Made by a program: the position numbers and the translations under genes. From contig CAYZXS010000007.1 in assembly GCA_964482495.1 (NCBI GenBank), positions 34,573 to 98,572 on the forward strand: a stretch of 64,000 nucleotides of DNA. The letters run 5' to 3'. The notes beneath the pieces are model-generated. The model was not told the origin of the DNA. It did not search any database and saw nothing but the letters and a program-made list of their open reading frames with translations. Positions 22,990-42,792 of this stretch are shown here, in pieces. This DNA is from an uncultured Planctomycetales bacterium (GTDB lineage: Bacteria > Planctomycetota > UBA1135). Position 1 is the stretch's first letter; every line of letters starts with the position of its first letter.

Positions 22990-23066
22990 AGCCGGCTGGG
23001 CGCGGGTGGCCGCGCTCCTCTCTCGAAGGCAAAGGGGGACTGCATGAAGGAGCCTGACACCAAGGC

Positions 23067-32709: not shown

Positions 32710-33933
32710 ATGATCCGCGCGCTCTCCCTGCCCCTGCTCTGCACCTTCCCCCTGCTCGCCGCGGCCCCGCCGCAAGAGCCCGAGGCCGTCGCCACCCTGG
32801 TCGACTCCGCCGCCCTCGAGCTCGACGGGACCCTGATTCCGTCCGCCTCCGAGGCCGTCACCTTCTGGCCGGAGACCTGGGCCGGCGAGCTGCTCTTCCT
32901 CGAGGTCGTGCCCCACGGCGCCATGGTCGAGGCCGGCCAGGTGATCGCCGTCTTCGACCCCCGGCAGATCGACGAGCAACTCCGCGCCGCCAAGGAAGAC
33001 CTCGAGTCCTCCCGCCTCAGCTTCCGGATCAGCACCCGCAAGGCCGAGCTCGAGGATCGCGCCGGGCGCCAGCGCATCGAGATGGCGGAGCGGGCCCTGA
33101 AGCGGGCCGAGCAGGGCCTGGAGAGCTTCCACGAGTTCGAGCTGCCGATGCGGGCGAAGCAGATGGAGCTGCAGCAGCTGTACAGCGAGGACGGCATCAA
33201 GGACCTGAAGGACGAGCTGGCCCAGCTCAAGGCGATGTACGAGGACGACGAGATCACCGACGCCACCGAGGACATCGTGCTCCAGCGCTCGGTGCGCCAG
33301 CTCGAGCGGACGCTCGTCAGCGCCGAGCTGTCGAAGGCCCAGCGGCAGCACCAGCGGGAGTTCGACTGGCGGATGGAGGCCCAGCGCAAGGAGGAGGACG
33401 TGCTGCGGCAGCGCAGCGCGCTGGAGAAGATGGTCGAGGAGTTCAAGCTGGATCAGCGCGCCCGCCACGACCGCCAGGCGAAGACCGAGGGCGAGCTGAA
33501 GCGCAAGGCCGAAAAGCTGGAGCGGCTGGCCCGCGACCGCCAGTCCTTCGAGCTCGAGGCGCCGCGCGCCGGGATGCTGCTGCACGGCAAGGTCGAGGAC
33601 TACTACCCCGGCGCGGCGGCGCCGCGCCACGCCCGCGGCGGCCGCGGCCAGCTGCGCGCGCCGATGTTCACGATCGCCGAGCCGCGCGGCTTCCACGTCG
33701 CCGTCAAGCTCAACGAGTCGCAGGTCGGCGGCCTGCAACAGGGCGCCGCCGTCACGATCGAGCCGGTGATCCAGGCCGAGGGCACGCTGCGAGGCACGCT
33801 GACCGTCGAGGTCCTGCCGCTGCCCGAGAGCGCCCGCGGCCCCGAGAACCAGTACGCCGGCCTGGTCGAATCCGACAACCAGGCGACCGGCTGGGCGCCC
33901 GGCATGCGCGCCAAGGTCGTGGTCGAGGGATGA
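32710..33933 (+). CDS. HlyD/membrane-fusion-like periplasmic adaptor protein
   Basis: Signal peptide, then a lipoyl-like hairpin (GAMVEAGQVIAVFD), a long Glu/Arg/Lys/Gln coiled coil and a C-terminal beta domain (MRAKVVVEG). Confidence 0.6.
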   Translation: MIRALSLPLLCTFPLLAAAPPQEPEAVATLVDSAALELDGTLIPSASEAVTFWPETWAGELLFLEVVPHGAMVEAGQVIAVFDPRQIDEQLRAAKEDLESSRLSFRISTRKAELEDRAGRQRIEMAERALKRAEQGLESFHEFELPMRAKQMELQQLYSEDGIKDLKDELAQLKAMYEDDEITDATEDIVLQRSVRQLERTLVSAELSKAQRQHQREFDWRMEAQRKEEDVLRQRSALEKMVEEFKLDQRARHDRQAKTEGELKRKAEKLERLARDRQSFELEAPRAGMLLHGKVEDYYPGAAAPRHARGGRGQLRAPMFTIAEPRGFHVAVKLNESQVGGLQQGAAVTIEPVIQAEGTLRGTLTVEVLPLPESARGPENQYAGLVESDNQATGWAPGMRAKVVVEG

Positions 33934-35090
33934 TCACCGCCCTGCTGCTCGCGGCGGCCGCCCTCCCCCAGGAGCCGGCCCACCTCTCCCCTCCGCGCGC
34001 CGAGGCCATCCAAGGCGCGGTCGAGTGGCTGGTCGCCAACCAGAACCCCACCGGGACCTGGGGCAGCCACCACTCGCCGCGGCCGATCGAGGTGTTGTGC
34101 TCGGTGCCCGGCGGCCACCACGTGTTCCGCGTCGCCACATCGGCGCTGTGCGTGATGGCGCTCGACCGCAGCCCCTACCAGACCGAGGCCAGCCGCGCCG
34201 CCGCCGACCGCGGCGTCGACGCCATCCTGCGCGAGCACGAGGTCAAGCGCGCCAGCATGCTCGAGCACTACACGGTGTGGGCGCTCGGCTACACGCTGCA
34301 GGCCCTGAGCGAGCGACTGATCGCCCAGCCCGACGACCCGCGGGCCGAGGCCATGCGCACGGTCTGCCAGCGCATGATCGACAAGCTGGAGCTCTACCAG
34401 TGCCTGGACGGCGGCTGGGGCTACCTCAGCCTGCAGGAGTTCAAGACCTACAAGCCGTCCTTCACCTCGATGAGCTTCACCACCGCGACCTGCCTGATCG
34501 GGCTGGCGCGGGCGCGCGAGGCCGGCTTCGAGCTGCCGCCCGAGATGATCCGCAAGGCGGTCGACTCGGTCGACCGCTGCGAGACGGCGATGAAGTCCTT
34601 CACTTACGGCGAGCTGTGGCGCAAGGGCCGGCCGAACTCGCCCAGCGTCAACCACTCCAAGGGCGCCGCCTGCCGCGGCCCGGTCTGCCTCGAGTCGATC
34701 CTGCTCTTCGGTCGCGAGCGGGCCCACGGCGACCTGATCCGCGCCATGGACCGGCTGCTCATCGACCACCTCGACTTCCAGATCGCCTCGCTGCGGCGGC
34801 CGATCCCGCACGAGTCCCACTACGGCATCTCCGGCTACTTCTACCTCTACGGCTACTACTACGCCGCCGAGATGCAGCGGCGCCTCCCTGACGCAGACCG
34901 CGCCCGCTACGCGCCCCTGCTCGAGAAGGCGGTCAACGTCTGCCGCCAGCCCGACGGTTCCTACTGGGACTACCCGCTCTACAGCTACCACAAGCCCTAC
35001 GGCACCGCCTACGCGCTGCTGACCTTGTCCGAGGTCGAGCACGTGGCCCAGCACCACAGCCCGTCGGCGCCGGCCCCTCCTCGAGGCTGA
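33930..35090 (+). CDS. Prenyltransferase/squalene-oxidase-repeat (alpha/alpha-toroid) protein
   Basis: Repeats QNPTGTWGS, LDGGWGY and QPDGSYWDY. ATGA overlap with the adaptor gene. Confidence 0.7.
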   Translation: MITALLLAAAALPQEPAHLSPPRAEAIQGAVEWLVANQNPTGTWGSHHSPRPIEVLCSVPGGHHVFRVATSALCVMALDRSPYQTEASRAAADRGVDAILREHEVKRASMLEHYTVWALGYTLQALSERLIAQPDDPRAEAMRTVCQRMIDKLELYQCLDGGWGYLSLQEFKTYKPSFTSMSFTTATCLIGLARAREAGFELPPEMIRKAVDSVDRCETAMKSFTYGELWRKGRPNSPSVNHSKGAACRGPVCLESILLFGRERAHGDLIRAMDRLLIDHLDFQIASLRRPIPHESHYGISGYFYLYGYYYAAEMQRRLPDADRARYAPLLEKAVNVCRQPDGSYWDYPLYSYHKPYGTAYALLTLSEVEHVAQHHSPSAPAPPRG

Positions 35091-35093
35091 TCC

Positions 35094-35256
35094 CGTCCGG
35101 TTTCCCCTTTCCGCCCCCTCGACGTCTCGTGCCAGTTTGGCACCAAACCCTGCGGCCCTCGGATCTGCGCCGCTGCGCGGCGCGGATCCACGGGCCGCAG
35201 GGTTTGGTGCCAAACTGGCACGAGACGTCGAGGGGGCGGAAAGGGGAAACCGGACG
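35094..35256. repeat. 163-bp near-perfect palindrome (65-bp perfect arms plus a nested 13-bp inner stem)
   Basis: 35094-35158 is the exact reverse complement of 35192-35256, checked base by base. In the spacer, 35161-35173 pairs with 35177-35189 with one T:G position, around a 3-nt loop. The palindrome lies exactly between the convergent stops at 35090 (+) and 35286 (-). Confidence 0.95.
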
Positions 35257-35285
35257 AGGGCGGCGCGGGGACCTTGAAGGAGGCC

Positions 35286-37172
35286 TCAGCGGGCGGCGTC
35301 GAGGTCGGCGAGAGTCTTGTTGCGCAGCTTGGGGAAGTTGCGGCTGAGGCGGCCGGGGATTTGGGGGGACTCGAGAGGGATGGCCTCGATGGACTCGCGG
35401 TAGGGTGCGGCGAGGGCGTCGAGGCGGTCGACGGCGTTCCAGGCGGCGAGGGCGAGCCAGGGGCCCTGGGCATCGGGGTGGCAGAGGGCGATCAGGGACG
35501 GAATGGCGCGGGCGCGGTCATCGGGGGTGCCGCGGCGGGCGAGGGCTTCGAGCCCCAGGATGCGGACGCTCGGGTCGGCGTGGTCGGCGAGCTGACGGAG
35601 GTTGCGCAGGCTGGCCTCGTGTTCGTGCAGCAGCGCCTGGGCGGCCCACCAGGCCCGGGTGGGATTGGCTTCGGTCGTCGCGCTGGTGGCGAGGGCGTTG
35701 CGGTGCAGGTAGCTGGTGTCGCGGCCGAGGTCCTTCAGGATCTGCTCGAGCGGGTAGCGCTCGAGGGCGGCGCCGAGGGCGGCGGGCGGGGCGCTGAGCT
35801 CGGCGGCGGCGTGCATCTGGGCCTCGGGCATCAGGCCGAGGTCGCGGGTGTGGAGCAGCCAGGAGCGGAGTTCGGCGCGGAGACGGATCAGGTGGCCGCG
35901 GTGCTGCTCGGAGGCGGCCAGGTTTCGGATCTCGTCGGGGTCGGTCTCCAGGTCGTAGAGCTCCTCGCGCGGCTTCGGCTCCCAGAAGCGGGCGAGGTGC
36001 GGCGGCAGGCCGCCGGCCCGGTAGGCGGCGCGCCAGGCGCGGGTGGTCGGGGTCTGGTTCTCGTAGTCGAGGAACTGGCCCTGCGGCAGCTGCGGCAGGT
36101 AGTTGCGGATGTAGACGTAGCGGCCGTCGGTGACCGAGCGGACGATGTCGAAGCGCTCGTCCATGCGGCCGCGGAAGCCGAACAGGTGGTCGCGAAAGCG
36201 CGCCGATGGGCGGCCGAGGTGCTCGGCGTCGGAGACGTGCGGGCCGAGGAAGGGCGTGCCGTGCATCCACTCCGGCGGCGCGATGCCGGCCAGGCTGAGC
36301 ACGGTCGGCGCCAGGTCGAGGAAGTCCACGAGCTGGTGGCTGACCTGGCCGGGCTTCCAGCTCCGCGAGGCCATCCCGCGCCATTTCGGCGGGATGCGCA
36401 CGATCAGCGGCACCCGCAGCCCCGAGTCGTAGGGCCAGCGCTTGCAGCGGCTGAGGCCGGGGCCGTGGTCGGCGAAGAAGAAGACGATGGTGTCTCCGGC
36501 GAGGCCGTCCTGCTCCAGCTCGGCCAGCAGCCGGCCGACGCGGGCGTCGAGCTCGGAGATCTTGTCGTGGTATTGCGCCCAGTCCCGCCGCACCTCGGGC
36601 AGGTCGGGGTGGAAGCCGGGCACGCGGACCTGCTCCGGGTCGTGCTTCAGCTCGTGCGGCCGCTTGCGGATCTGGCTCTCGTGGGTGACCGTGAAGTTGA
36701 AGACGGCGAAGAAGGGCTGGCCGTCGGCGCGGCGGCGCCAGTGGGCCTTGCCGCTGGTCTCGTCCCAGACCTGGCCGGGCTTGACCAGGTTGTAGTCTTC
36801 CTTGCGGTTGTTGGTGCAGGAGTAACCCGCCTCACGCAGCAGCTGCGGGAAGAAGCGCAGCCACTCCGGCGGCTCGACCAGGGTGCGCATGTCGTGGGCG
36901 CCGAGGCTGGGCGGCCAGACGCCGGTGATCAGCGCCGTGCGGGCCGGCGCGCACACCGGCGCGCTCGACCAGGCGCGCTGGAAGCGCATGCCCTCGGCGG
37001 CCAGGGCGTCGAGGTTGGGGGTGACCGCGTCCGGGTCGCCGTAGCAGCCGAGGTGGGGTCCGTGGTCCTCGCTGGTGATCCAGAGGATGTTGGGGCGCTC
37101 CGCCTCCTGCGGGCTGAGAGCAGCAGCAGGGGCCGAGAGCGGCGCGAGGGCGAGCAGCAGGCTGGAGATCAT
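35286..37172 (-). CDS. Formylglycine-type sulfatase with C-terminal HEAT/ARM-like repeat region
   Basis: NILWITSEDHG and SSAPVCAPARTALITG (CxPxR FGly motif), plus FFADHG. The C-terminal ~180 aa are helical-repeat-like (ADHADPSVRILGLEALARRG...). Confidence 0.9.
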   Translation of the reverse strand: MISSLLLALAPLSAPAAALSPQEAERPNILWITSEDHGPHLGCYGDPDAVTPNLDALAAEGMRFQRAWSSAPVCAPARTALITGVWPPSLGAHDMRTLVEPPEWLRFFPQLLREAGYSCTNNRKEDYNLVKPGQVWDETSGKAHWRRRADGQPFFAVFNFTVTHESQIRKRPHELKHDPEQVRVPGFHPDLPEVRRDWAQYHDKISELDARVGRLLAELEQDGLAGDTIVFFFADHGPGLSRCKRWPYDSGLRVPLIVRIPPKWRGMASRSWKPGQVSHQLVDFLDLAPTVLSLAGIAPPEWMHGTPFLGPHVSDAEHLGRPSARFRDHLFGFRGRMDERFDIVRSVTDGRYVYIRNYLPQLPQGQFLDYENQTPTTRAWRAAYRAGGLPPHLARFWEPKPREELYDLETDPDEIRNLAASEQHRGHLIRLRAELRSWLLHTRDLGLMPEAQMHAAAELSAPPAALGAALERYPLEQILKDLGRDTSYLHRNALATSATTEANPTRAWWAAQALLHEHEASLRNLRQLADHADPSVRILGLEALARRGTPDDRARAIPSLIALCHPDAQGPWLALAAWNAVDRLDALAAPYRESIEAIPLESPQIPGRLSRNFPKLRNKTLADLDAAR

Positions 37173-39651: not shown

Positions 39652-42600
39652 ATGATCGGCATCGGCGACCGGGACTACGTGGCGATCCGCTTCGAGGCAT
39701 TCCTCGACGAGGTCCTGGCGCCGGCGGCGGTCGTCGCCCGCGCGCCCCTCGAGCTCGAGGTCTGGCAGCCGGGCGAGGCGGCGGCGCTCCCTTCCGCCCA
39801 GGCCGCGGCCGACGCCGGCGAATACGCCCCCTGCGCCCCCGGCCACCGCTGGGGTCCTGCCTGGAGTACGGCCTGGTTCCGGATCCGCGGTCGCGTACCG
39901 GAGGAAATGGGCGGCCACCCGGTGGCCCTGCGCTTCTCGAGCGGCACCGAGGCGCTGCTGTGGCGCGACGGCGCGCCGCGGCAAGGCTTGGACGACAACC
40001 GCGACCGGGCGCTGCTGTGGCGACGGGCCGCCGGCGGCGAAGAGCTCGAGCTGTTCGTGGAGGCCGCCTGCAACCTGCCGCTCGGGGTCAGCACCTTCTG
40101 GTGGGACCACCCGGAGCTGGCGGCGCGCTGGCGCGAGGACCAGCCGGGACGCGTCGAGTGCTGCGAACTGGTCGCGGTCGATCCGGAGCTGGAGCGGCTG
40201 TGCCGCAAGGTCGACCTGGCGCGCCGCACCCTGCTGGCGCTGCCCGAGGACCACCCGCGCGGCCTGGAGCTGCTGCACGGCCTGCGCCGGCTGCTCAACG
40301 AGGTGCCGGCGGCCGAACCGCGGCGCATCCTCGAGCTCGAGCCGGGCCTGGACGCCTTGCTGCGAGGCGCCCCGGAAGCGCCGCGCTCGGTCTGCCACGC
40401 CGTCGGCCACGCCCACGTCGACACCGCCTGGCTGTGGCCGCTGCGCGAGACCCGGCGCAAGCTGCTCCGCACCTGGGCCAGCGCCCTCGAGCTGATGGAG
40501 CGCTTCCCGCGCTTCCGTTTCCTCGCGAGCTCGGCGCAGCACTACGCCTGGGTCGAGCAGGACGCGCCGGAGCTGTTCGCGCGGGTGAAGCAGCGCGTCG
40601 CCGAGGGCCGCTGGGAGGTCATCGGCGGCTCGTGGGTGGAGAACGACTGCCACGCCCCCTCGGGCGAGTCGCTGGTGCGGCAATTGGTGCACGGCCAGCG
40701 GTGGTTCGCGGACAAGTTCGGCGACGCCGCGCCGCAGCGGTTGATGTACCTGCCGGACACCTTCGGCTTCCCGGCCTCGCTGCCGCAGATCGCCAAGGGG
40801 GCGAGGCTGGACACCTTCGTCACCAACAAGCTGTCCTGGTGCCACCGCAACCCCTACCCCTTCACCACCTTCCGCTGGCGCGGCGTCGACGGCAGCGAGC
40901 TGCTGAGCCACTTCACGCCCGGCGACGACTACAACGCGCCGCTCGAGCCGAAGGATCTGCTGCACGGCGAGGGCAAGCTGCTGCGGACCGACCGCGGCGC
41001 CTTCCGCGAGCCGCGCGGCGGGGAGCCGCCGCGCTGGCTGCAGCCCTTCGGCTACGGCGACGGCGGCGGCGGGCCGACCGAGGAGATGGCGGCGCGGGCC
41101 GAGCTGGCGGCGGCGGTGAACGGGCTGCCGCCCGTGGTGCAGGGCAGCGCCGCCGACTTCGCCGCGGCGCTGCACGCCGACCGCGACGGCCGCCTGGCGC
41201 GGGGCGAAGCCGACCTGCCCGCCTGGGACGGCGAGCTCTACCTGGAGTTCCACACCGGCACCCAGACCAGCCAGGCCTGGCTGAAGGCCGCCAACGCGCG
41301 GGCCGAAGCGCAGCTGCGGAGGATCGAGGGCATGCTCGCGGCCGGCGGGGACCAGGGGTTGGCGCGGGAGCTGGCCCCGCGGATGGACGCGGCCTGGAAG
41401 ACGGCGCTGCTGCACCAGTTCCACGACATCTTGCCCGGGACCTCGATCGCGGCGGTCTACGAGCAGGCGAGGGCAGACCACGGCGCGCTGGAGGCGGAGC
41501 TCGAGGCCCTCGAGGCGCGCGCCGCGGCGGCGCTGCGGGCGCGGCTGGACGACTCCGGCATGGCCGAGCCGGTGATGGTCTTCAACGACGGCTCGACGAC
41601 CCGCGGCCGGATCCTGCGCGGCGCCGGCGGCTTGCGCTGGACCCGGCCGATCCCGCCCATGAGCGCCGCGCTCTTCGACCTGGCGCTGCCGGGGCCGGTG
41701 CCGTCGCCGGTGCGCCCCCACGCCGGCAAGCGGCGGCTGGAGAACGACCTCGTGGTCATGGAGCTCGACGACGCCGGCCGGATCGCCCGCCTGCAGCGCC
41801 GCGGCTGCTCCGCCCCGGTCAACGCCCGCCGCGCCGACGGCGGCCTGGAGCCGCTGCACCAGCTGGTCGCCTACGAGGACCGGCCGCGGCGCTGGGAGGC
41901 CTGGGACCTGGACTTCGACTACCCGGACAAGGCGGCGCTGATCGAGTCGCCGGCGGACTCCATCGAGCTGGTCGAGGATGAGGCCCTGCGCTCCACCTTC
42001 GAGGTGCGGCGGCGCTGGCGGTCGAGCGAGATCGTGCTGCGCTACAGCCTCGAGGCCGGCTCGGACCGGGTCGAGATCGCCCACGAGATCGACTGGCGCG
42101 AGGAGCGGACCCTGCTGCGCGCCCTCTACCCCACCGCCATCCGCGCCCGCCACGCCCGCTTCGGCATCCCCTTCGGCTTCCTCGACCGCCCCACCCACCG
42201 CAACACCGACCGCGAGCAGGCGGCCATCGAGCACCCCGGCCAGCGCTGGATGGAGCTGCGGCAGCCCGGCCTGGCGCTGCGCGTCGAGGACGACGGCAGC
42301 AAGCACGGCCGCTCCGTCGACGGCGGCACCCTCGGCCTGTCCCTGCTGCGGGCTCCCAACTTCCCCGACCCCGACGCCGACCGCGGCCGCCACGAGTTCA
42401 CCCTCTGGTGTCAGGCTCCTTCGTCAAGTGCCGGCGACCCAGCGGAAGCCTCGCCGGCGGCCGCCGGCGCCGCGACGACCGGTCCGCGCCGAGCGCTGGG
42501 ACGGCTACAGGTCTCCGCCGGCGTCTCCATCGCCGCCTTCAAGCTGGCCGAGGACGGCGACGGCTGGATCCTGCGCCTGGTCGAGGAGCGCGGCGGCCTG

Positions 42601-42792
42601 ACGCCGCTAGAGCTGCGCCTGGACCCAGCGCCCGCCACGGTGGAAGTCGTCGACCTGCTCGAGCGCCCGGCGCAGCGCCGGGACCCGCGCGGGGCCTCAG
42701 CCGCGGCGGACTGCATGAAGGAGCCTGACGCCGTCTCCCTCCTCCTCCGCCCCTTCGAGATCCTGACGCTCCGGATCCGGGACGCGGAATGA
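39652..42792 (+). CDS. GH38-family alpha-mannosidase
   Basis: HAVGHAHVDTAWLWPLRETRRK is the GH38 metal-site signature. Also WVENDCHAPSGESLVRQ and FHDILPGTSI. Start taken at ATG 39652. Confidence 0.93.
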   Translation: MIGIGDRDYVAIRFEAFLDEVLAPAAVVARAPLELEVWQPGEAAALPSAQAAADAGEYAPCAPGHRWGPAWSTAWFRIRGRVPEEMGGHPVALRFSSGTEALLWRDGAPRQGLDDNRDRALLWRRAAGGEELELFVEAACNLPLGVSTFWWDHPELAARWREDQPGRVECCELVAVDPELERLCRKVDLARRTLLALPEDHPRGLELLHGLRRLLNEVPAAEPRRILELEPGLDALLRGAPEAPRSVCHAVGHAHVDTAWLWPLRETRRKLLRTWASALELMERFPRFRFLASSAQHYAWVEQDAPELFARVKQRVAEGRWEVIGGSWVENDCHAPSGESLVRQLVHGQRWFADKFGDAAPQRLMYLPDTFGFPASLPQIAKGARLDTFVTNKLSWCHRNPYPFTTFRWRGVDGSELLSHFTPGDDYNAPLEPKDLLHGEGKLLRTDRGAFREPRGGEPPRWLQPFGYGDGGGGPTEEMAARAELAAAVNGLPPVVQGSAADFAAALHADRDGRLARGEADLPAWDGELYLEFHTGTQTSQAWLKAANARAEAQLRRIEGMLAAGGDQGLARELAPRMDAAWKTALLHQFHDILPGTSIAAVYEQARADHGALEAELEALEARAAAALRARLDDSGMAEPVMVFNDGSTTRGRILRGAGGLRWTRPIPPMSAALFDLALPGPVPSPVRPHAGKRRLENDLVVMELDDAGRIARLQRRGCSAPVNARRADGGLEPLHQLVAYEDRPRRWEAWDLDFDYPDKAALIESPADSIELVEDEALRSTFEVRRRWRSSEIVLRYSLEAGSDRVEIAHEIDWREERTLLRALYPTAIRARHARFGIPFGFLDRPTHRNTDREQAAIEHPGQRWMELRQPGLALRVEDDGSKHGRSVDGGTLGLSLLRAPNFPDPDADRGRHEFTLWCQAPSSSAGDPAEASPAAAGAATTGPRRALGRLQVSAGVSIAAFKLAEDGDGWILRLVEERGGLTPLELRLDPAPATVEVVDLLERPAQRRDPRGASAAADCMKEPDAVSLLLRPFEILTLRIRDAE

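What the first reader, a model, noticed from the sequence alone, without database searches (positions are those of the whole stretch)
35094..35256. 163-bp near-perfect palindrome filling the gap between two convergent genes
The arms 35094-35158 and 35192-35256 are exact 65-nt reverse complements. The 33-nt spacer forms another 13-bp stem (GGATCTGCGCCGC / GCGGCGCGGATCC, with one T:G position) around a 3-nt loop. Nearly the whole element can therefore form one ~80-bp hairpin or cruciform. Each arm also contains a nested inverted repeat, GTGCCA-N3-TGGCAC. This is far longer than an intrinsic terminator needs to be. Candidate roles are a bidirectional terminator or RNA stabiliser, a REP/MITE-like mobile palindrome, a protein-binding or cruciform site, or a recombination hotspot. 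The mirrored peptides in track ORFs 35129..35347 and 35009..35473 are a by-product of the symmetry.
Basis: seen in the sequence. Interest (0 to 1): 0.6.

Follow-up and report, generated by a model that had tools for sequence, protein, structure and literature searches.

The report
REPIN-like palindromic repeat, new family
The 163-bp palindrome is real, but it is one copy of a small family of selfish-looking palindromic DNA repeats (REP/REPIN-like) in an uncultured planctomycete, so it is an ordinary kind of element in a new lineage.

Summary
The palindrome at 35094-35256 is exactly as described: 65-nt perfect arms, 80-nt arms at 96%, a 3-nt loop and a fold z-score of -23. It is not unique. Each arm carries a 29-nt unit, CTCGACGTC plus an 8-bp/3-nt hairpin. 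A covariance model finds 46 such units in this 3.9-Mb MAG, 19 in its closest relative, 3 in a third congener, and 0-1 in 46 other genomes of the family. Every unit away from a contig end lies in a dimer with the tags on the outside. Spacers are 0-298 nt and unrelated in sequence, and 17 of 18 dimers sit beside a gene's 3' end. Two congeners have an empty site here (12-16 nt between the two stop codons). A third has a homologous palindrome that differs by about 40%, including matching indels in both arms, yet is still near-perfect. Seven dimers are palindromic beyond the units. Their apex is usually GCGNAGC, the stable DNA mini-hairpin motif. There is no U-tract. No RAYT-like gene is flanked by these units, although two other repeat families in this genome do flank RAYT-like genes. 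Verdict: a REP head-to-head dimer (REPIN-like) of an undescribed family. Any terminator or RNA-stabiliser role is secondary and untested. The scan had noted a different palindrome family in this genome, not this one.

The parts
35094..35256 (.). Whole 163-bp near-perfect palindrome: a head-to-head REP dimer plus its self-complementary flanks and spacer
35094..35117 (+). Outer left arm (24 nt). It is specific to this copy, is not conserved in the family, and pairs with 35233-35256
35118..35146 (+). Left REP unit: CTCGACGTC tag plus the hairpin region TCGTGCCA-GTT-TGGCACCA and a final A. Its C at position 2 of the stem (family consensus G) leaves a C-C mismatch, so only GTGCCA/TGGCAC pairs cleanly (subfamily A)
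   Evidence: CM hit G000:C7:69687-69722, 47.1 bits
35129..35143 (+). Nested hairpin GTGCCA-GTT-TGGCAC inside the left unit
35147..35203 (.). 57-nt spacer. It is self-complementary here and unrelated to the spacers of other copies
35161..35189 (.). Apical 13-bp hairpin with loop TGC (35174-35176). The apex reads GCGCAGC on the - strand, a GCGNAGC mini-hairpin motif
35204..35232 (-). Right REP unit, identical to the left unit, with its tag on the outside
   Evidence: CM hit C7:69772-69807, 47.1 bits
35207..35221 (-). Nested hairpin inside the right unit
35233..35256 (-). Outer right arm (24 nt), the exact complement of 35094-35117
33930..35090 (+). Upstream convergent gene, similar to a prenyltransferase or squalene-cyclase repeat protein. 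Its stop is 3 nt before the palindrome
35286..37172 (-). Downstream convergent gene, a sulfatase with a HEAT-repeat tail. Its stop is 29 nt after the palindrome

Best explanation
The palindrome is a head-to-head dimer of a 29-nt REP-type unit. Each unit has a conserved 5' tag, CTCGAC[A/G]T[C/T], followed by an 8-bp stem and a 3-nt loop. The element is REPIN-like, non-coding DNA and belongs to a family confined to a sub-clade of one planctomycete genus. SHOWN: the family exists, with about 23 dimers in this genome. Units occur only as dimers with tags outside. Spacers vary. Most copies lie just after genes. Copies are present or absent at orthologous sites between species. At this site the element is shared by three species and missing in two. 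INFERRED: the element arrived as an insertion directly after the stop codon of the upstream gene, in the common ancestor of G000, G001 and G004. Since then its two arms have been kept identical by copying of one arm from the other. The likely process is replication template switching or hairpin-templated repair, as known for quasi-palindromes, because the arms stay 95-96% complementary while orthologues have diverged by about 40% with matching indels. The same process can spread palindromy from the units into the spacer and flanks, producing the unusually long 163-bp form. The GCGNAGC apex would nucleate the single-stranded DNA hairpin. Both convergent genes presumably transcribe into the element. 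It would then give an ~80-bp RNA hairpin at both 3' ends, which probably blocks 3' exonucleases and hinders read-through. This is a side effect and not a canonical intrinsic terminator. What moves the units is unknown. No tyrosine transposase gene is flanked by them.
For: The repeat family is seen (32 regex hits against 0 in the reversed genome). The covariance model R1 finds 46 units in G000, 19 in G001, 3 in G004, 0 in G002 and G003, and 0-1 in 44 further genomes of the family. All 18 internal loci are dimers with tags outside, and all 10 lone units sit at contig ends pointing off the contig. Spacers are 0-298 nt and unrelated in sequence. Of 18 dimers, 17 have an adjacent gene 3' end and only 1 lies between divergent genes. 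The nested hairpin is 87.8% paired, and pair 16-28 occurs as U-A in 21 units and A-U in 11. Empty orthologous sites are TGA-16 nt-TCA in G002 and TGA-12 nt-TCA in G003, and the old spacer GGGCGGCG.. is still recognisable to the right of the element in G000. The G004 orthologue is a 153-nt palindrome that aligns along its whole arm with ours and has matching indels in both arms. The G000 copies at C10:64935 and C3:116121 are absent from the orthologous sites of relatives, while G001 has a dimer 300 nt away where G000 has none. The apex is GCGNAGC in 13 of 16 apical hairpins, against a genome-wide frequency of 0.0023 per position; the motif's stability is described in PMC13037366. For the literature: REP HH dimers with 20-100-bp variable spacers, some embedded in longer palindromes, are described in PMC3733652. 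REPINs with common compensatory changes are described in PMC3116915. Template switching homogenises and extends inverted-repeat arms and inverts spacers (PMC8604942, PMC13100816, PMC7202029). The RAYT-linked family in the same genome also forms 133-149-bp palindromes.
Against: No cognate transposase was found. Both RAYT-like genes, and their homologues in G001 and G004, are flanked by other repeats. No target-site duplication or excision footprint was seen. Copy number, about 46 units, is low for a REP family. No two copies share outer arms or spacers, so there is no direct trace of recent copying of whole elements. Presence and absence could partly reflect loss. Arm homogenisation is inferred from comparison, not observed. 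Strong selection on an RNA stem, or independent insertions at the same site, could mimic it. No transcript data are available, so the RNA role is conjecture. The assembly is 87.6% complete and breaks at these repeats.
Confidence: 0.72

Rival explanations
1. The element is mainly a bidirectional transcription terminator or 3'-end RNA stabiliser for the two convergent genes, kept by selection on the RNA stem. Its family resemblance is secondary.
For: It sits between convergent stop codons. The RNA hairpin is extremely stable. Most family members lie within 100 nt of a 3' end. Some G-U-compatible changes occur in the unit stem. REPs are known to stabilise upstream mRNA in E. coli (own knowledge).
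Against: There is no U-tract on either strand. Two congeners manage with 12-16 nt between the same two genes. Copies also lie upstream of genes and between divergent genes (C19, C8, C12). The arms are Watson-Crick perfect and do not show the G-U tolerance expected of an RNA stem. Matching indels in both arms are hard to obtain by selection alone. A canonical hairpin followed by T7 exists elsewhere in this lineage (G001:C143), so ordinary terminators are in use.
Confidence: 0.12
2. The element is a pair of binding sites for a sequence-specific DNA-binding protein. The 19-bp dyad TGGTGCCA-N3-TGGCACCA would act as an operator or nucleoid site, possibly for the ORF6N-domain protein whose gene has such a dimer next to its start.
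For: Each unit is a perfect dyad of operator size. Symmetric changes in both half-sites would also be expected for a homodimer. A dimer lies about 25 nt upstream of the ORF6N gene in three species.
Against: Units arrive as insertions of 100 nt or more and are absent from orthologous sites in relatives. They lie mostly after genes and not in promoters. They occur only as inverted pairs at variable distances of 0-298 nt. The ORF6N link rests on one orthologous locus, so it is a single evolutionary observation.
Confidence: 0.08
3. The element is a MITE: a deletion derivative of an insertion sequence whose terminal inverted repeats are the 29-nt units.
For: The unit-bearing terminal regions are inverted, the element is small, and it shows presence/absence polymorphism.
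Against: Interiors are unrelated between copies. No target-site duplication is seen at the filled and empty sites compared. No longer element with a transposase lies between units in G000, G001 or G004. The palindromy extends outside the 'TIRs' with copy-specific sequence. Scans of genome and metagenome collections found no parent element.
Confidence: 0.05
4. The palindrome is an assembly artefact, such as a fold-back chimera.
For: Palindromes can be created by assemblers or amplification. At least 10 contig ends of this MAG lie inside such repeats.
Against: It lies inside a 104-kb contig, and both flanks are syntenic with four relatives. G004 assembled a homologous palindrome at the same site. 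G001's contig reads through the apex before it ends.
Confidence: 0.01

Closest known systems
REPINs (REP doublets forming hairpins; Bertels & Rainey 2011, PMC3116915)
   Same: Two inverted REP units plus a spacer fold into one long hairpin or, alternatively, a 'clover' of small hairpins. The doublet, not the single unit, is the unit of occurrence. Copies are extragenic. Compensatory changes across the hairpin are common. The family is restricted to a lineage.
   Different: No RAYT gene is flanked by these units. Spacer length is not fixed (0-298 nt here, about 71 bp between 16-mers in SBW25 GI). There are only about 23 dimers. The spacers and the outer flanks are copy-specific, and in 7 copies they have become fully palindromic.
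CGTC-tagged REP head-to-head dimers (Di Nocera, De Gregorio & Rocco 2013, PMC3733652)
   Same: Subfamily A units read CGTC and then an 8-bp stem. HH dimers (tags outside) predominate. Spacers are 20-100 bp, often variable, some with complementary ends. Some dimers sit inside longer palindromes. No dedicated transposase is known. Copies lie downstream of ORFs between tandem or convergent genes.
   Different: The conserved tag here is the longer CTCGAC[A/G]T[C/T]. Subfamily B (CATC) and the G004 type (CATT) lack CGTC. The loop is 3 nt, not 4-5. There is no CCA tail, and the stem does not start with two A/T pairs. CGTC families were not reported from Planctomycetes.
The two RAYT-flanking palindromic repeat families of the same genome (GGGGTCAGACATCGATTG... 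and TGGTGTCAGGCTCCTTCGTCAAGTC)
   Same: Same genome and same habit: inverted pairs, 133-149-bp near-perfect palindromes, and contig breaks at the repeats.
   Different: Their sequences are unrelated. Those families flank RAYT-like genes in G000, G001 and G004. Ours does not.
MITE-type palindromic repeats such as Correia/NEMIS of Neisseria or ERIC of enterobacteria (own knowledge)
   Same: They are 100-160-bp elements with inverted ends in transcribed intergenic regions, with insertion polymorphism between strains.
   Different: Those have a conserved interior, and Correia elements have a TA target duplication. Here only 29 nt per arm are conserved and no duplication is seen.
U-less 'I-shaped' hairpins and the TRIT motif downstream of convergent genes in high-GC actinobacteria (own knowledge, not checked here)
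   Same: They are very stable GC-rich hairpins without a U-tract, right after stop codons in a high-GC genome.
   Different: Whether such hairpins terminate transcription is disputed. Here a conserved tag-plus-hairpin unit and presence/absence polymorphism point to a repeat family and not to a locus-specific signal.

Membership tests
REP (repetitive extragenic palindrome), broad sense | A short (20-40 bp) imperfect palindrome repeated many times in extragenic DNA | tested here: met
   A 29-36-nt unit occurs 46 times in G000 (E<=1e-4) against 0 regex hits in the reversed genome. All loci are extragenic. Copy number is low for a REP family.
REP, tagged super-families of Di Nocera et al. 2013 (CGTC type) | An unpaired CGTC (or TGTC/CCTC) tetranucleotide at one end of the stem-loop | tested here: inconclusive
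   Subfamily A, including this copy, has CGTC directly 5' of the stem. Subfamily B has CATC and the G004 type has CATT. The invariant part is CTCGAC.
REP, CGTC families 1-4 | Stem of 8-9 bp beginning with two A/T pairs, loop of 4-5 nt, and a 3-nt CCA-like tail | tested here: not met
   The stem is 8 bp (T-A, G-C, G-C...), the loop is 3 nt, and the tail is A or AA. It is therefore not one of the four described CGTC families.
REP dimers | Units paired head-to-head (tags outside) with spacers of about 20-100 bp | tested here: met
   18 of 18 internal loci are HH. Spacers are 0-298 nt, mostly 19-98 nt.
REPIN | An inverted REP doublet plus spacer predicted to form one hairpin | tested here: met
   for this copy. 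Seven of 18 dimers are palindromic throughout; in the others only the units pair.
REPIN | A cognate RAYT (Y1/HUH transposase) gene flanked by the same REP units | tested here: not met
   Two RAYT-like genes match PF01797 at 23 bits; the C33 gene, the only one scanned, matches NF047646 at 46.5 bits, below the 80-bit cut-off. They are flanked by unrelated 42-nt and 25-nt repeats in G000, and their homologues in G001 and G004 are flanked by the same two repeat families. The assemblies are 75-88% complete, so a third RAYT could be missing.
REPIN | Evidence of excision or insertion | tested here: inconclusive
   Filled and empty orthologous sites are seen at three loci.
MITE | Terminal inverted repeats, a target-site duplication, a conserved interior, and a related autonomous IS | tested here: not met
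   No duplication is seen at the junctions. Interiors are unrelated. No IS bounded by the units was found.
Intrinsic (Rho-independent) terminator | A GC-rich hairpin immediately followed by a U-tract | tested here: not met
   No terminator-like site was found in 34600-35800 on either strand. The hairpin is followed by GAGGGCGG on the + strand and GGGATCAG on the - strand.
Integron attC site | R''/R' core sites (RYYYAAC...GTTRRRY) and location at cassette ends in a co-oriented array | tested here: not met
   No such cores are present in the sequence. Copies are dispersed on 15 or more contigs. Relatives lack only the palindrome, not a gene cassette.
Any Rfam family | A match at the gathering score | tested here: not met
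   Only generic long-hairpin (miRNA precursor) hits appear, far below their gathering scores.

The most novel reading that the evidence does not exclude
This is a REPIN-like family that has no transposase of its own. Its palindromes persist and grow in place through replication template switching, nucleated by a GCGNAGC DNA mini-hairpin at the apex. On this reading long perfect palindromes are built locally from a short head-to-head REP dimer. Unit types at orthologous loci are overwritten within each species: the ORF6N locus carries three different unit types in three species. That implies gene conversion among dispersed copies, or mobilisation in trans by the RAYTs of the two other families. 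Those RAYTs show the same present/absent pattern across the five congeners.
Probability: 0.2. Interest if true: 0.55.

Novelty: new member of a known kind. Interest (0 to 1): 0.3.

Why it matters
For this window the result is mostly housekeeping. The striking palindrome is a genomic repeat. It is not a regulatory device particular to these two genes, and the small ORFs across it are spurious. Three points have wider use. First, the family and its two RAYT-linked companions explain why MAGs of this genus break into contigs: at least 10 contig ends of this assembly lie in units of this family alone. Second, it adds a REP family without a cognate transposase from Planctomycetota, next to two families that have one. 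That makes a natural contrast for asking how 'orphan' REPs spread. Third, the orthologous palindromes in three species diverged by about 40% yet stayed near-perfect, with matching indels and a GCGNAGC apex. They are a clean natural example of arm homogenisation in a bacterial palindrome.

Tried and rejected
- Rfam: only sub-threshold miRNA-precursor look-alikes, as expected for any long hairpin.
- Sigma-54 promoter reading of TGGCAC: the spacing to a TTGC is off by one in the only copy that has it, and the downstream bases are not conserved. Rejected by inspection.
- Inverton (invertible segment between inverted repeats): spacers of 0-98 nt are too short and several are themselves palindromic. 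Rejected by reasoning, not tested with reads.
- attC/integron, CRISPR, parS and dif: the sequence and arrangement do not fit.
- A loose 'CTCGAC plus any hairpin' scan was uninformative: 1525 hits against 1295 for a control tag. It was replaced by a stricter pattern and a covariance model.
- Whole-collection scans for the unit found only the sister MAG (an uncultured Planctomycetales bacterium, CAZXTO01) and one unconvincing metagenome contig.
- The apparent reading frame through the C19 copy is not a gene. The element lies between a divergent pair.
- SbcD search: only a 30-bit partial match against a cut-off of 77.65. It is inconclusive whether the hairpin nuclease SbcCD is absent.

Full report
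**1.

The window sequence and the repeat finder show arms 35094-35173 and 35177-35256 of 80 nt, 96% complementary, around a 3-nt loop. The outer 65 nt of each arm are exact complements. The inner 13-bp stem has one T:G position and a 2x2 internal loop. Each arm holds GTGCCA-N3-TGGCAC (2 matches, 0 expected).

As RNA, 35080-35270 folds into one hairpin of -198 kcal/mol, with z = -23.4 and 0 of 200 shuffles as good. With DNA parameters the 163 nt give -116 kcal/mol, against -28 for a 'clover' of the three small hairpins.

The element lies 3 nt after the stop of a prenyltransferase-like gene (33930-35090, +). It lies 29 nt before the stop of a sulfatase/HEAT gene (35286-37172, -). A whole-genome scan shows it is the longest palindrome in the assembly.

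**2. It is not unique**

The window is contig C7:34573-98572 of a 3.87-Mb, 99-contig, 71.7% GC MAG that is 87.6% complete. One arm matches about 20 other places through a 29-nt core, CTCGACGTCTGGTGCCAGATTGGCACCAA.

A second subfamily was then found: CTCGACATCAGGAACCA-N3/4-TGGCTCCCTG. A stricter pattern gives 32 hits, against 0 in the reversed genome.

Forty units from three species align without gaps (A1). CTCGAC is invariant. The 8-bp stem is 87.8% paired, and pair 16-28 occurs as U-A in 21 units and A-U in 11.

A covariance model of the unit (R1) gives these counts:
- G000: 46 units at E<=1e-4.
- G001, the closest relative: 19 units.
- G004: 3 units.
- G002 and G003: none.
- 44 other genomes of the same family: 0-1.

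Scans of 185,579 species representatives and of the JGI metagenomes found the unit only in G001 and in one doubtful contig. G001 is an uncultured Planctomycetales MAG.

**3. Anatomy of the family**

All 18 loci away from contig ends are dimers with the tags outside. All 10 lone units lie at contig ends and point off the contig. The true number is therefore about 23 dimers, with no singletons and no tail-to-tail or tandem pairs.

Spacers range from 0 to 298 nt and share no sequence between copies.

Seventeen of the 18 dimers have a gene 3' end next to them. Four or more lie between convergent genes, about ten between tandem genes, and one between divergent genes.

In seven dimers (C7, C8, C14, C19, C31, C63 and partly C3:116121) the palindromy runs through the spacer and 12-27 nt beyond the tags. 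These extra arms are different in every copy and tend to stop at the nearest coding sequence.

Where the spacer forms an apical hairpin, its apex is GCGNAGC on one strand in 13 of 16 cases. Some of these are orthologous pairs, so the count is about 9 of 12 independent loci. The motif's frequency in the genome is 0.0023 per position. In our copy it reads GCGCAGC on the minus strand. GCGNAGC is the 'mini-hairpin DNA' motif, known for extraordinary stability as single-stranded DNA (PMC13037366).

**4. Comparison with relatives**

At the orthologous site, G002 has TGA-16 nt-TCA and G003 has TGA-12 nt-TCA between the same two genes. In G000 that short spacer (GGGCGGCG..) is still visible to the right of the element. 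The element is therefore an insertion directly after the upstream stop codon, with no target duplication.

G001 has the element at 90% identity. Its contig ends just past the apex. G004 has a 153-nt palindrome at the same place.

The G004 arm aligns with ours along its whole length, outer arm and apex included, but at only about 60% identity and with several indels. Both G004 arms carry the same changes, and each genome's arms are 95-96% complementary.

Flanking-gene identities place G000, G001 and G004 together against G002 and G003. The figures are 90, 89, 89 and 84% upstream, and 83, 80, 72 and 71-81% downstream, for G001, G004, G002 and G003. The simplest history is one gain, followed by divergence with the two arms kept alike.

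Other copies are younger or less stable. The G000 dimers at C10:64935 and C3:116121 are missing from the orthologous sites of G001, G004 and G002. G001 has a dimer 300 nt away, after a GIY-YIG gene, where G000 has none.

G004 has its own unit type, CTCGACATTGGGTGCACWTTCTGCCCC, at four or more places.

**5. What might move the units**

The genome has two RAYT-like genes. Both match PF01797 at 23 bits. The C33 gene, the only one scanned, matches NF047646 at 46.5 bits, below the cut-off, and it has the HUH and Y motifs.

Each gene is flanked by its own inverted repeat, GGGGTCAGACATCGATTGATATTCGA.. or TGGTGTCAGGCTCCTTCGTCAAGTC. These are themselves larger dispersed families, with about 100 and about 45 hits. 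The same arrangement holds in G001 and G004.

No RAYT-like gene is flanked by CTCGACRTC units. The C33-type RAYT is present in G000, G001 and G004 and was not found in G002 and G003. This is the same pattern as our family, which is suggestive but no more.

**6. Comparison with the literature**

Di Nocera et al. (PMC3733652) describe REPs tagged by GTAG or CGTC. They report mostly head-to-head dimers with tags outside, spacers of 20-100 bp that are often variable and sometimes self-complementary, some dimers embedded in longer palindromes, and a preference for sites downstream of genes. For the CGTC class they found no dedicated transposase.

Our subfamily A fits that description except for loop length (3 nt, not 4-5), the tail and the first stem pairs. 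The conserved tag is really CTCGACRTY, and subfamily B lacks CGTC. I therefore do not file the family under their four CGTC families.

Bertels & Rainey (PMC3116915) define REPINs as inverted REP doublets that form hairpins, with frequent compensatory changes. Our element matches in form but fails the RAYT-association criterion.

Template switching at imperfect inverted repeats is an established process. It makes arms identical, lengthens them and flips spacers (PMC8604942, PMC13100816, PMC7202029). It accounts for three features here:
- the matching indels in both arms;
- the spread of palindromy into copy-specific DNA;
- dimers whose two loops are not complementary (for example AGA and AGA in G001:C143).

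**7. Function**

There is no U-tract and no promoter-like site. Relatives do without the element. It is therefore not a necessary terminator.

If transcribed, it must form a very stable 3' hairpin on both convergent mRNAs. A stabilising or read-through-limiting effect is likely but untested.

A protein-site reading remains a minority possibility. It rests on one locus: an ORF6N-domain gene has a dimer about 25 nt upstream of its start in three species.

**8. Limits**

No reads or transcripts could be examined. The assemblies are incomplete and break at these repeats. Homogenisation and mobility are inferred from comparison of five genomes. An SbcD homologue was not found above the cut-off, but this is inconclusive.

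**Verdict**

It is of modest interest.

Noticed in passing
G000 C33:20118-21295 and C1:206510-207583; copies in the window at 23046-23061(-), 42407-42422(+) and 42717-42732(-): Two other dispersed palindromic repeat families (GGGGTCAGACATCGATTGATATTCGA.., about 100 hits; TGGTGTCAGGCTCCTTCGTCAAGTC, about 45 hits) each flank a RAYT-like tyrosine-transposase gene. These look like genuine REPIN/RAYT or TIRYT systems.
   Followed up: partly
G000 C45:7473-8278; G001:C98:1664-2486; G004:C4:139-615: A 141-143-aa ORF6N-domain (PF10543) gene has a REP unit or dimer about 25 nt upstream of its start at the orthologous locus in three species. Each species has a different unit type there (subfamily B, subfamily A, G004 type). 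Unit types at a fixed site therefore get replaced.
   Followed up: partly
Ends of G000 contigs C3, C7 (both ends, outside the window), C8, C28, C32, C43, C66, C67 and C88, with a dimer 50 nt from the start of C75; many other contig starts at positions 13-55 carry the GGGGTCAGAC family: Contigs of this MAG, and of G001, end inside these palindromic repeats. C28 and C88 end with the same 55 nt. This fits a k=55 de Bruijn assembly that cannot cross inverted repeats of 55 nt or more, so repeat counts are lower bounds.
   Followed up: partly
G001:C143:3905-3948 (locus L042): Where G000 has a REP dimer between two genes, G001 has a canonical intrinsic-terminator-like hairpin followed by seven T (CCAGGGGGGGGTGGTCGACGACCGCCCTCCTGGTTTTTTT). 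Ordinary U-tract terminators therefore exist in this high-GC lineage.
   Followed up: no
G001:C98:2150-2450 (locus L051): The 309-nt spacer of this dimer contains a run of 8-nt tandem repeats (CGCCAGTC / CGCCAGCC, about 7 copies).
   Followed up: no
G001:C44:1007-2851 (loci L025/L029): At the site where G000 has the C3:116121 dimer, and where G004 has only 5 nt between the genes, G001 has an extra ~1.8-kb segment. It carries a 610-codon open frame on the minus strand. This intergenic position is a hotspot for insertions.
   Followed up: no
G000 C9:83348-83629: The best SbcD (TIGR00619) match in the genome scores only 30 bits against a cut-off of 77.65. The hairpin nuclease SbcCD may be missing, which would help long palindromes to survive. 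The assembly is incomplete.
   Followed up: no
window 35009-35473(-) and 35129-35347(+): The two ORFs that cross the palindrome are mirror images produced by the symmetry. Their neighbours are called with GC3 of at least 0.85, and these ORFs are not genes.
   Followed up: partly
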